64,000 bases of DNA, taken from NCBI GenBank assembly GCA_951406725.2, contig OX597820.1:64604001-64668000 (forward strand), read 5' to 3'. This document shows, one piece after another, positions 27,566 to 29,616 of the stretch. The stretch's first letter is position 1. Each line of letters begins with the position of its first letter. The DNA is from Octopus vulgaris. Lineage: Eukaryota. The position numbers and the translations under genes were made by a program. The notes beneath the pieces are model-generated. The model saw only the letters and a program-made list of their open reading frames with translations. It did not search any database and was not told where the DNA came from.

Positions 27566-27979
27566 TATAACAATAAACACACACAAACGCATACACACAC
27601 ACCACACACATCTAGTATATATGAAGCCCAGTATGCATGTGTATAATGATTAATACATATTTTATCCAAACGTTACAAACGCATCACTTATGTCCCAAGG
27701 ATGGTCATGCACTATGACATTTTGTACAGAGCACCCACGTAAATTAACGTAAATGGACATAGTTTTTATACGTAGGATCTTCCATACTTTTTAAATCTTT
27801 TTATAAAAGTGAAAGGATTTTGTCTATTTATTTATTTCGACTGTCCAACTGCGCAGTGACCCAGTCAGGAAACGGGATTTAGAAGCTGTCATTTTTTTTT
27901 CATGTAAATAAATGTTTGTGTTAATTTAAATGATTTATTCAAAAAAATCTTATTTAGATGTTATTTTTAGGTACTTCTC

Positions 27980-28098
27980 ACTTTTGCCAGCTGAGTAAAC
28001 TGGAGCAACGTGAAATAAAGTATCTTGCTTAACACAACGGTCCGCCAGGTATTGAACTCATGACTATAAGCCATAACCACTTAGCCACGCGTCTTCAC
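27980..28098 (-). mobile_element. SINE family C, 5' fragment
   Basis: Reverse complement gtgaagacgcgtggctaagtggtta...gagttcaatacc...atttcacgttgctccagtttactcagctggc. Confidence 0.7.
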
Positions 28099-28132
28099 TA
28101 GACGCATATATACAAAGAACTATGTAATGGCT

Positions 28133-28580
28133 ATGTGAGGTATACTTGCCATCTCAATATGGCTAACCACTAAGGGTGGGTGTTACTGTAGCTTTTAGCC
28201 CAAGGAGAACATCGCCTCCAGCTGGCTTTAGGCACACTTTCTGTGTCCTTATGGTATTTGCAAAGGGAGGTCACCCTTCCCTCGTCAACCTAAGTGATAC
28301 GCACGGACTGCAGTTTCTAGGTGATTGTCGTGCGCTGATGACAGGTCAAAACCTAGAAACTGCAGTCCGTGAGTATCACTTAGGTTGACGAGGGAAGGGT
28401 GACCTGCCTTTGCAAATACCATAAGGGCACAGAAAGTTTGCCTAAAGCCAGCAGGAGACGATGTTCTCCTGGGGCTACAAACTACAGTAACACCCACCCT
28501 TATTGGTTAGCCATATTGAGATGACAGGTATACCTCATATTGTCGGGCAGTTACTGTTTATACCTCGTTCAGAGATTTAT
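28133..28580 (+). mobile_element. Non-autonomous palindromic element with apical hammerhead ribozyme, 40-nt tail and 12-bp target-site duplication
   Basis: Arms 28136-28322 and 28351-28537 (12 mismatches in ~187 nt), 28-nt loop, tail 28541-28580, direct repeats TATGTAATGGCT at 28121-28132 and 28581-28592. Confidence 0.9.
28331..28371 (+). ncRNA. Minimal type-I hammerhead ribozyme (Penelope-type)
   Basis: tgcg-CTGATGA-c-aggt-caaa-acct-a-GAAA-CTGCAG-TC-cgtg: intact core, stem II aggt/acct, palindromic stem III CTGCAG, GUC triplet with predicted cut after 28367, short stem I tgcg/cgtg. Confidence 0.8.
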
Positions 28581-29616
28581 TATGTAATGGCTGATTTCTC
28601 AGAAAGCATATTCTGCTCCTCATCTATTTTCTTGAACACATTTCTACACTGACAACTTTTGAACATCATGTACGATATTTGAGTTTCAAAACATTGATTC
28701 GGTGGGTGGAAGTTACAGATTGCTGACGGTTATGTATTCTTTCTATGCTACGTTGCAGACGACAGTGTACTGACGTTGCCTGAGTGCTTTTACATCATTT
28801 TTGATGATCCACCTCACCAAGGTACCGATATAGACCTCTTCTCTTATACCTATTAAAGCTTTCTTTCTACAACTCCTTTGACTCCATGGGAAGCATAGTG
28901 TGCTAAAAAGAGAACGCCATCTGTTTCGCTCTTTGGTAATGGATTGCAGGTATATTCAAGTTTGACCACCAGTCACAGGTCCTTTCTAGATTCCTTGCAT
29001 TACTTCATACCAAATCTCTGAGGACTACATCCCCTTATCAGGACCTGTTTCTTATTTCTTGTTGATACTGCTGGTCTGCTAACCATAATCTACAGAACTC
29101 TTTTTCTCTCAGACAAACGTGGGAACGACTACGGCAAAATTGACACGAGATTTGCTTACGCATTTTGTAGATGTGTGCCGTTGCTTCTATTATAATTTAA
29201 TTTCAGCGAATTCCTTACCGTTTAATAAATAGGGTACCGATTGGCGATAGCTGGAAGCCTTTTCATGAAAATTCACAATTTTGGCTCTGATAGCAGCAGA
29301 AATGGTAACTGTAGACATGTTCATAACTTTCAGAGAAGATTAAATTTGAGAGAAGACAAACAAAATACTGGTTAATATAGGACGACTATCATTTCTATCG
29401 GATTGTTGAAAATTATGCATCTAAAGCACAGGTTTCCTGTTTATTGCCGTTCCATTATTCCTAATTAATACAAAAACGGTATTAACCTTCGAAATGTGTT
29501 ATGAAAGATAAATAAATGAAGGCTAATAATTGCATATAAATATGTTTGTGTTGGTGTATGCGTCCGAGGTGCCTGTGAGTGAATGTGTATTTGTGTGTGT
29601 GTGAATAAATATATAG

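What the first reader, a model, noticed from the sequence alone, without database searches (positions are those of the whole stretch)
28121..28592. Palindromic mobile element with a hammerhead ribozyme at the hairpin apex, a tail and a 12-bp TSD
Seen in the sequence: a 448-bp unit sits between perfect direct repeats TATGTAATGGCT, and the palindrome starts at the first base after the left repeat. It folds into a ~408-nt rod (two ~187-nt arms) followed by a 40-nt unpaired tail. The loop and the start of the right arm spell a complete minimal hammerhead: CUGAUGA, stem II, GAAA, palindromic CUGCAG stem III and GUC. Established: minimal type-I hammerheads with palindromic stem III, inverted pseudo-LTRs and short 3' tails are hallmarks of Penelope-like elements, and retrozymes are non-autonomous hammerhead-bearing retroelements. 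Inference: this is a non-coding, self-cleaving hairpin retroelement mobilised in trans by a Penelope-like RT/GIY-YIG protein, and annotation pipelines would likely mislabel it as a MITE.
Basis: partly seen in the sequence, partly recalled or inferred. Interest (0 to 1): 0.9.

Follow-up and report, generated by a model that had tools for sequence, protein, structure and literature searches.

The report
Retrozyme insertion with Penelope-type mirror ends
The palindrome is one landing scar of a small non-coding, ribozyme-carrying parasite RNA (a retrozyme) that is abundant in this animal genome, and the shape of its many insertions suggests that Penelope-like retrotransposons copy it into DNA from both sides of the cut at once.

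Summary
The hairpin, 40-nt tail, 12-bp direct repeat and hammerhead motif are real. The hairpin is not the mobile unit: its apex junction occurs once in the genome, the motif beside it 1605 times. The unit is a 354-355-nt non-coding head-to-tail monomer with a type I hammerhead, a non-LTR retrozyme, with three sister families of 350-360 nt, each with its own palindromic stem III. The window copy is two 5'-truncated copies joined head to head. Across copies the outer ends are fixed about 45 nt apart, the junction varies, and TSDs are mostly 11-15 bp of variable AT-rich sequence: the Penelope-like (PLE) footprint. Both arms carry the same variant, and in 24 of 49 copies neither arm could be copied from the other, which favours priming from both target nicks on one circular or uncleaved RNA. 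Intact RT/GIY-YIG PLEs are abundant here, but no partner matched by sequence. Cleavage, expression and an empty site are unshown; this copy's ribozyme is probably dead. The scan noted similar PLE-type footprints in other genomes. Interest 0.55.

The parts
28121..28132 (+). Left target-site duplication (9-12 bp)
   Evidence: family TSDs
28133..28322 (-). Inverted, 5'-truncated copy of the monomer (m126-m315, L032 numbering); its outer end is the family's 'short' end
   Evidence: (96% to monomer L032)
28320..28322 (.). 3-nt microhomology (GGT) joining the two copies; junction unique in the genome
   Evidence: (overlap -3)
28320..28583 (+). Forward, 5'-truncated copy of the monomer (m95-m358); reads across the ribozyme cleavage site
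   Evidence: (94% identity)
28320..28380 (+). Type I hammerhead: stem I 28320-28334/28368-28380, core 28335-28341, stem II 28343-28354 closed by a C.A mismatch, GAAA 28356-28359, self-complementary octamer 28359-28366, predicted cut after 28367; stem I weakened by two private changes
   Evidence: activity not tested
28541..28583 (+). Tail: the 40-43 nt between the family's two fixed outer ends
   Evidence: motif inside it has 1452 exact hits, control 0
28581..28592 (+). Right target-site duplication (first 3 nt shared with the element end)

Best explanation
The locus is one insertion of a non-LTR retrozyme. SHOWN: the unit is a 354-355-nt non-coding monomer that occurs head to tail, with a conserved type I hammerhead at the tip of a long rod; insertions are typically two 5'-truncated copies head to head, with outer ends fixed near m313 and m358, a variable junction and a variable AT-rich TSD; both arms are the same sequence variant; many arms read across the cleavage site. 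INFERRED: multimeric source loci are transcribed; two hammerheads pair through their self-complementary octamers and cut out monomers that may be circularised; a PLE RT/GIY-YIG protein binds the RNA in trans, nicks both target strands about 12 bp apart, and primes one cDNA from each nick at two internal start sites about 45 nt apart (which defines the tail); the cDNAs grow towards each other, stop at variable points (or roll round the circle to give multimers) and are joined by microhomology, then filled in. The window copy is a dead-end product about 3-5% diverged from consensus. Odds: retrozyme with PLE-type insertion about 0.85; twin priming as the source of the mirror arm about 0.6; circular rather than uncleaved linear template about 0.5.
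For: Monomer and tandems. Copy number: 1452 exact tail-motif hits, 428 exact family-A cores, controls 0. Unique apex. In 64 distinct family A/C insertions taken by position on contig C1, 38 were inverted and 26 direct. One short (m300-323) and one long (m350-367) end in 49 of 64 inverted loci, 30 of 40 in the position-based sample. Non-microsatellite TSD in 27 of 62 inverted against 4 of 37 direct loci and 5 of 250 mismatched flank pairs; 27 of 31 are 11-15 bp. Arms differ at 25 of 459 segregating cells (5.4%) against 35% when shuffled and 3.3% background; tandem neighbours 12 of 204 against 21%. Short-end arm reaches further 5' in 24 of 49. 32 of 64 insertions cross the cleavage site; 2 of 102 truncations lie at it. 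Family B: 9 inverted plus 3 forward near-identical units in one insertion (L187), 6.5 plus 2.4 in L147. Core kept in 54 of 71 units spanning it; four different palindromic octamers in four families, 61 of 80 motifs palindromic; rod 93% paired with 11 of 39 pairs changed on both sides. Intact 781-aa RT/GIY-YIG frames; their insertions show the same inverted arms and alternative ends; the PLE at L086 has a hammerhead with the same kind of 10.1/11.1 mismatch. PMC11167929 (parts 1-2 read): a purified PLE cuts and extends both strands and starts RT at two internal sites that bound the tail.
Against: No autonomous PLE with a matching end was found among 75 PLE-bearing loci, so the partner is inferred from shape only. 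The G10.1-C11.1 pair, called highly conserved in PLE hammerheads (PMC4209133), is absent. No cleavage or expression data; 8 of 9 Xenopus retrozyme dimers did not cleave in vitro (10.64898/2026.07.22.740005). Long palindromes lose their centres (recalled), which could mimic the asymmetry used to argue twin priming. Arm concordance could also come from one master locus dominating the RNA pool. L031 has discordant tandem units (6 of 24 sites), and 6 of the 23 tandem pairs come from one local 119-bp array (L188; 12 of 156 without them). 15 of 64 inverted loci lack the canonical end pair. The rod structure was derived from the same 6 sequences it was counted on, and most double changes come from one family-B row.
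Confidence: 0.75

Rival explanations
1. Same retrozyme and PLE protein, but the mirror arm is made by fold-back self-priming of one cDNA (or self-priming on an antisense template, as proposed for PLEs in PMC3846280), with later loss at the centre.
For: Arms share variants, as a copy of a copy would; 1-6-nt overlaps at 16 of 49 junctions; in the window the tail arm is the longer one, which fits fold-back.
Against: In 24 of 49 loci each arm holds sequence the other lacks, including near-identical young arrays (L187, L147); a fixed short end needs a second start or stop site, which PMC11167929 found as an RT start; TSDs go with two-armed insertions.
Confidence: 0.25
2. The 355-nt unit is the pseudo-LTR of an autonomous PLE not yet found, and these are its truncated stumps rather than an independent retrozyme.
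For: PLE insertions are usually 5'-truncated and most minimal hammerheads lie in such fragments (PMC8557442, PMC4209133); only 150 of 6136 GIY-YIG candidates were scored.
Against: Copies that extend upstream continue into another monomer, never into an ORF; longest stop-free frame in tripled monomers 73-98 aa, no PLE protein match below E 0.3; the PLE fragments near L145 and L014 belong to a family with a different end.
Confidence: 0.08
3. The retrozyme is mobilised by a LINE (AP- or REL-endonuclease) rather than a PLE.
For: LINEs are named as candidates in PMC7229834; TSDs of 11-15 bp and microsatellite targets are not PLE-exclusive (recalled); no PLE partner matched.
Against: No poly(A) or repeat tail of its own; the inverted arm duplicates the 3' end, whereas LINE twin priming inverts without duplicating (recalled); two fixed ends with a 30-50-nt tail are described as PLE-specific (PMC8557442, PMC11167929).
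Confidence: 0.06
4. One reading: a fixed 448-nt hairpin RNA with an apical ribozyme transposes as a unit.
For: The top genome hits are hairpins of similar length with the same outer ends.
Against: Those hits were ranked by likeness to the query; their junctions all differ; the window's junction has 1 hit with up to 2 mismatches; the rod buries the ribozyme.
Confidence: 0.03
5. MITE or fold-back DNA transposon.
For: Long inverted repeats inside a direct repeat.
Against: Asymmetric ends, variable TSD length and sequence, 5'-truncation series, head-to-tail multimers, conserved ribozyme.
Confidence: 0.01

Closest known systems
Metazoan non-LTR retrozymes (Cervera and de la Pena 2020, PMC7229834, passages and Discussion read; Li, Clavereau and Pollet 2026, 10.64898/2026.07.22.740005, parts 1-3 of 5 read)
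   Same: Non-coding head-to-tail units of 150-450 bp (mussel 350-390) with a type I hammerhead, GC below 50%, no LTR, TSD longer than 4 bp, co-occurring with PLEs.
   Different: Most family A/C copies are shorter than one unit and arranged head to head with two fixed ends and a tail; neither main text describes this ('inverted' 0 times in PMC7229834, once in a reference title in the preprint, 'tail' 0; their supplements could not be read). Hammerhead lacks G10.1-C11.1 and has an 8-nt palindrome. No pLTR homologue found here, unlike 24 of 57 Xenopus families.
Insertions of endonuclease-bearing Penelope-like elements (PMC3846280, PMC8557442: passages; PMC11167929: parts 1-2)
   Same: Inverted 5'-truncated copy at the 5' end, optional 30-40-nt tail, partial tandems, 8-10-bp TSDs, AT-rich and microsatellite targets, hammerhead upstream of the tail.
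   Different: No ORF; the unit is a closed circularly permuted monomer; tail 40-45 nt (about 50 in family D); TSD mostly 11-15 bp.
Minimal PLE hammerheads (PMC4209133, parts 1-2 and 2 supplement files searched)
   Same: Type I, palindromic stem III suited to dimer cleavage, extra base after A9.
   Different: Extra base on both sides of stem II (a 1x1 mismatch: C.A, U.U or A.G), long extended stem I.

Membership tests
Non-LTR retrozyme | Head-to-tail repeats of a 150-450-bp unit | tested here: met
   354-355 nt (A, C), 360 (B), 350 (D)
Non-LTR retrozyme | Type I hammerhead motif in each unit | tested here: met
   Core in 54 of 71 spanning units; covarying stems; no Rfam model listed
Non-LTR retrozyme | Non-coding, GC below 50%, no LTR | tested here: met
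   Longest frame 73-98 aa; GC 0.44-0.47; no tRNA gene in 4 loci
Non-LTR retrozyme | Dispersed with TSDs longer than 4 bp | tested here: met
Non-LTR retrozyme | Self-cleavage | not testable with these tools
   Needs in vitro assay
Non-LTR retrozyme | Expressed as linear and circular monomer RNA | tested here: inconclusive
   Searches give only contigs of runs not on record as RNA; 32 of 64 insertions cross the cut site, which fits a circle or an uncleaved RNA
PLE-type insertion | Inverted 5'-truncated copy next to the forward copy | tested here: met
   38 of 64 position-sampled insertions
PLE-type insertion | 30-40-nt tail on one side | tested here: met
   Ends near m313 and m358 in 49 of 64 inverted loci
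PLE-type insertion | AT-rich or microsatellite target | tested here: met
   Right flank 77% AT; (TA)5 within 30 nt in 26 of 66; window-wide GC is about 0.34, no shuffled control
Autonomous PLE | RT plus GIY-YIG ORF in the element | tested here: not met
Non-autonomous derivative of a specific PLE | Sequence shared with that PLE's pLTR or tail | tested here: inconclusive
   No match in 75 PLE-bearing loci from about four families; most PLE candidates not examined
Minimal PLE hammerhead (Cervera 2014 consensus) | G10.1-C11.1 pair next to the core | tested here: not met
   C.A, U.U or A.G at that place
Minimal PLE hammerhead (Cervera 2014 consensus) | Palindromic stem III | tested here: met
   61 of 80 motifs, four different octamers
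MITE | Symmetric fixed ends and fixed short TSD | tested here: not met

The most novel reading that the evidence does not exclude
A superfamily of four or more circular-RNA retrozymes is integrated by a PLE dimer that primes two cDNAs from both target nicks on one RNA circle, at two start sites that bound the tail. This would be genomic proof that PLE machinery moves retrozymes, and would explain the PLE inverted-repeat-plus-tail structure by twin priming instead of self-priming; the ribozyme would be a dimer-acting variant without the G10.1-C11.1 pair, recognised by a partner through RNA shape, not sequence.
Probability: 0.4. Interest if true: 0.75.

Novelty: new variant of a known kind. Interest (0 to 1): 0.55.

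Why it matters
Which retrotransposon moves animal retrozymes, and how PLEs make their inverted repeats and tails, are both stated as open in the papers read (PMC7229834, the 2026 preprint, PMC8557442, PMC3846280). This family gives over a thousand short insertions in which both ends, the junction, the TSD and the template variant can be read at once, plus intact PLE ORFs in the same genome, so the question can be tested with one 355-nt RNA and a few proteins. Side effects if true: hundreds of long perfect hairpins seeded in the genome (possible dsRNA sources; speculation), and a repeat class that MITE finders and Rfam would mislabel or miss. The window locus itself is an old, probably inert copy.

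Tried and rejected
Fixed hairpin element: rejected. My own first idea that the two arms come from two different RNA molecules: not supported, arms are concordant. Linear cleaved monomer as main template: no pile-up of truncations at the cut site. Candidate partners: the family-C-like match downstream of the PLE in L086 and the one at L145/L189 are separate insertions behind microsatellite; L068 and L098 matches were judged separate by position and strand only. Rfam: only miRNA-like chance hits. tRNA/Pol III origin: no tRNA in 4 loci. Expression: no RNA holder listed; laying one RNA-guess run and three unlabelled runs (4 of 24 listed) gave contigs only. Empty site: no such joint among the 15 of 46 joints shown; unique right-flank contigs in three runs reach 21 letters into the tail, under the 31 needed to count as bridging, with 16-17 differences in 441 letters in two of them, a weak hint that the insertion is old and shared. 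No relatives' genomes are held. A first pair count used a structure string one column off, redone; one script failed midway and was redone. The automatic direct/inverted call undercounts inverted copies in diverged family C (e.g. L112, L141, L170, L027 show an inverted arm). L149 and L150 duplicate L148 and were dropped but are still in the counts; five family-B-like loci of the 71 sampled were left out of A/C counts. Literature searches; none listed a paper on this family or on twin priming in PLEs; an octopus repeat annotation (PMC13282606, passages) has no mention of hammerheads or retrozymes. Lunse et al. 2017 was not held, and Repbase/Dfam could not be searched, so prior annotation is not excluded.

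Full report
1. Observation. Identical 12-mers flank a 448-bp unit; arms 28133-28322 and 28351-28540 match at 177 of 190 positions; 40 nt remain as tail; CUGAUGA is at 28335, GAAA at 28356 and the predicted cut follows 28367. The RNA folds at -359.6 kcal/mol, z -35.9. The window holds no other copy and no PLE protein fragment; its ORFs are microsatellite artefacts by inspection. The genome is 2.8 Gb in 227 contigs; its microsatellite load reminds me of octopus genomes, which is recall and was not tested.

2. The unit is not the hairpin. The genome search gave 3597 candidates, 40 scored. Many hits began at unit position 188 and continued upstream into sequence absent from the window. Fetching 20 of them showed a head-to-tail monomer of 354-355 nt. 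In its numbering the window copy is an inverted piece m315 to m126 followed by a forward piece m95 to about m358, overlapping by 3 nt. Every hairpin examined has its own junction. The window's 24-nt junction has one hit in the genome with up to two mismatches; the motif just right of it has 1605. A 22-nt tail motif has 1452 exact hits and the family-A ribozyme core 428, controls 0; these count motifs, not insertions.

3. Insertion anatomy. To avoid ranking bias I took the first 100 listed tail-motif places on contig C1, which gave 71 loci: 66 of families A/C and 5 family-B-like. After dropping two duplicates, 38 of 64 were head-to-head and 26 direct (inverted ones are undercounted in diverged copies). 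Adding the 35 ranked loci, 49 of 64 inverted insertions have one outer end at m300-323 (mostly 307-315) and the other at m350-367 (mostly 357-359). Inner ends are spread over the whole monomer and beyond. Non-microsatellite TSDs were found in 27 of 62 inverted and 4 of 37 direct insertions, against 5 of 250 mismatched flank pairs; 27 of 31 are 11-15 bp and all differ in sequence. Flanks are 77% AT and 26 of 66 have a TA run within 30 nt. This is the structure described for PLE insertions: inverted truncated copy, 30-40-nt tail, partial tandems, 8-10-bp TSDs (PMC8557442; PMC3846280; passages read).

4. A superfamily. Family C is 83% identical to A, B (360 nt) 64%, D (350 nt) 60%. B forms near-identical multimers, with 9 inverted plus 3 forward units in L187 and 6.5 plus 2.4 in L147. 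D shows the same two ends, about 50 nt apart, and inverted arms in 6 of 7 loci. None has a frame above 98 aa.

5. The ribozyme. The core is kept in 54 of 71 units that span it. Stem II varies as A-U against G-C among family-A copies (100 of 428 listed). Stem III is a different self-complementary octamer in each family (A ACUGCAGU, B ACCAUGGU, C ACCCGGGU, D AUCGCGAU); 61 of 80 motifs are palindromic, which fits dimer cleavage as proposed in PMC4209133. The hammerhead caps a long rod: 93% of cells paired, 11 of 39 pairs changed on both sides, 0 of 500 shuffles as high (six related sequences, structure taken from them). Circular monomers fold at z -3.4 to -5.8 (40 shuffles). Against: G10.1-C11.1 is replaced by a mismatch in all four families, and Rfam lists no hammerhead. 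An autonomous PLE here (L086) has the same kind of mismatch. The window copy has two private changes in stem I, and in the full hairpin RNA the ribozyme fold costs about 51 kcal/mol, so it is probably inactive.

6. Mechanism. Shown: the arms of one insertion carry the same variant (25 of 459 segregating cells differ, 35% when shuffled, background 3.3%), which sank my first idea of two different templates. Tandem neighbours are also concordant (12 of 204 against 21%; 12 of 156 without one local array; L031 is an exception). Half of the insertions (32 of 64) read across the cleavage site and only 2 of 102 truncations fall at it, so the template was circular or uncleaved. In 24 of 49 canonical insertions the short-end arm reaches further 5' than the tail arm, so each arm has sequence the other lacks. 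Inferred: a PLE protein nicks both target strands and primes a cDNA from each, at two internal start sites that bound the tail; the cDNAs are joined by microhomology (1-6-nt overlaps at 16 of 49 junctions) or short fillers. PMC11167929 shows in vitro that a PLE cuts and extends both strands, starts at two internal sites bounding the tail, prefers AT-rich targets and uses mainly uncleaved RNA. The rival is self-priming (PMC3846280) plus later loss at the palindrome centre, which I cannot exclude; nor can I tell one RNA circle from two RNAs of one master locus.

7. The partner. GIY-YIG matches are abundant (6136 candidates, 150 scored; 16 rows by my count lie in a 781-aa open frame). That protein has RT (28.9 bits, just under the Pfam cut-off) and GIY-YIG (30.6 bits) with a cysteine motif between them, which points to the Neptune or Nematis clades as described in PMC8557442; no tree was built. 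These PLEs leave the same marks: a 766-bp identical inverted arm in L086, two alternative ends about 70 nt apart in another family, palindromic hammerheads near their ends. But no PLE end in 75 loci matched any monomer; all hits were separate retrozyme insertions. The partner is therefore inferred, not found.

8. Comparison and novelty. The unit meets every sequence-level feature of non-LTR retrozymes (PMC7229834; 2026 preprint); cleavage and circular RNA are untested. Both papers propose PLEs as the mobilisers from co-occurrence, shared hammerheads and pLTR similarity, and leave the mechanism open; neither main text describes inverted arms or tails for retrozymes, though their supplements were unreadable (bioRxiv supplements closed) and may bear on this. 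Seven paper searches listed nothing on this family; Repbase and Dfam were not searchable. Earlier notes of this scan report similar footprints in other genomes (unchecked), none on this sequence or genome.

9. Verdict. Real feature, partly misread. A new variant of a known kind: ordinary as a single locus, useful as a family because it records how PLE-type integration treats a small ribozyme RNA. Interest 0.55.

Noticed in passing
L187 (G000:C1:31008644-31015144), L147, L091:7954-9171: Young family B (360 nt): near-identical multimers arranged as inverted plus forward arrays inside TA microsatellite; the best candidate for a still active family.
   Followed up: partly
L214-L219, L092:305-790: Family D (350 nt, 60% to A; 2239 first-look candidates) with its own palindromic stem III, an AUA cut site and an A.G mismatch next to the core.
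   Followed up: partly
L080-L085 (e.g. L080:2449-4791): Young autonomous PLE family with many intact 781-aa frames, 456-bp direct pLTRs, a long upstream reading frame region and a U3-A8 core hammerhead variant.
   Followed up: partly
L189-L213: Second PLE family with two 3' ends about 70 nt apart, many inverted insertions and a very short U3-A8 hammerhead with a palindromic stem III.
   Followed up: partly
L188: Family-A insertion containing a local tandem array of a 119-bp piece that includes the tail, inside one 14-bp TSD.
   Followed up: no
family A/C monomer m195-m205: 15 of 102 5' truncations cluster just 3' of the long rod, as if RT stalls there; part may be alignment drop-off in family C.
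   Followed up: no
L148, L149, L150; L142, L143: Identical insertions with shared flanks at separate places on C1, probably segmental duplications; L142/L143 carry a small B-like palindrome with two short ends and no tail.
   Followed up: no
window 27964-28051: A different, very high-copy repeat lies about 80 bp left of the insertion (greatest depth); SINE-like by appearance, not identified.
   Followed up: no
L014, L145: Retrozyme copies sit within a few hundred bases behind the 3' end of a PLE copy; may reflect shared targeting of AT-rich PLE ends or chance.
   Followed up: partly
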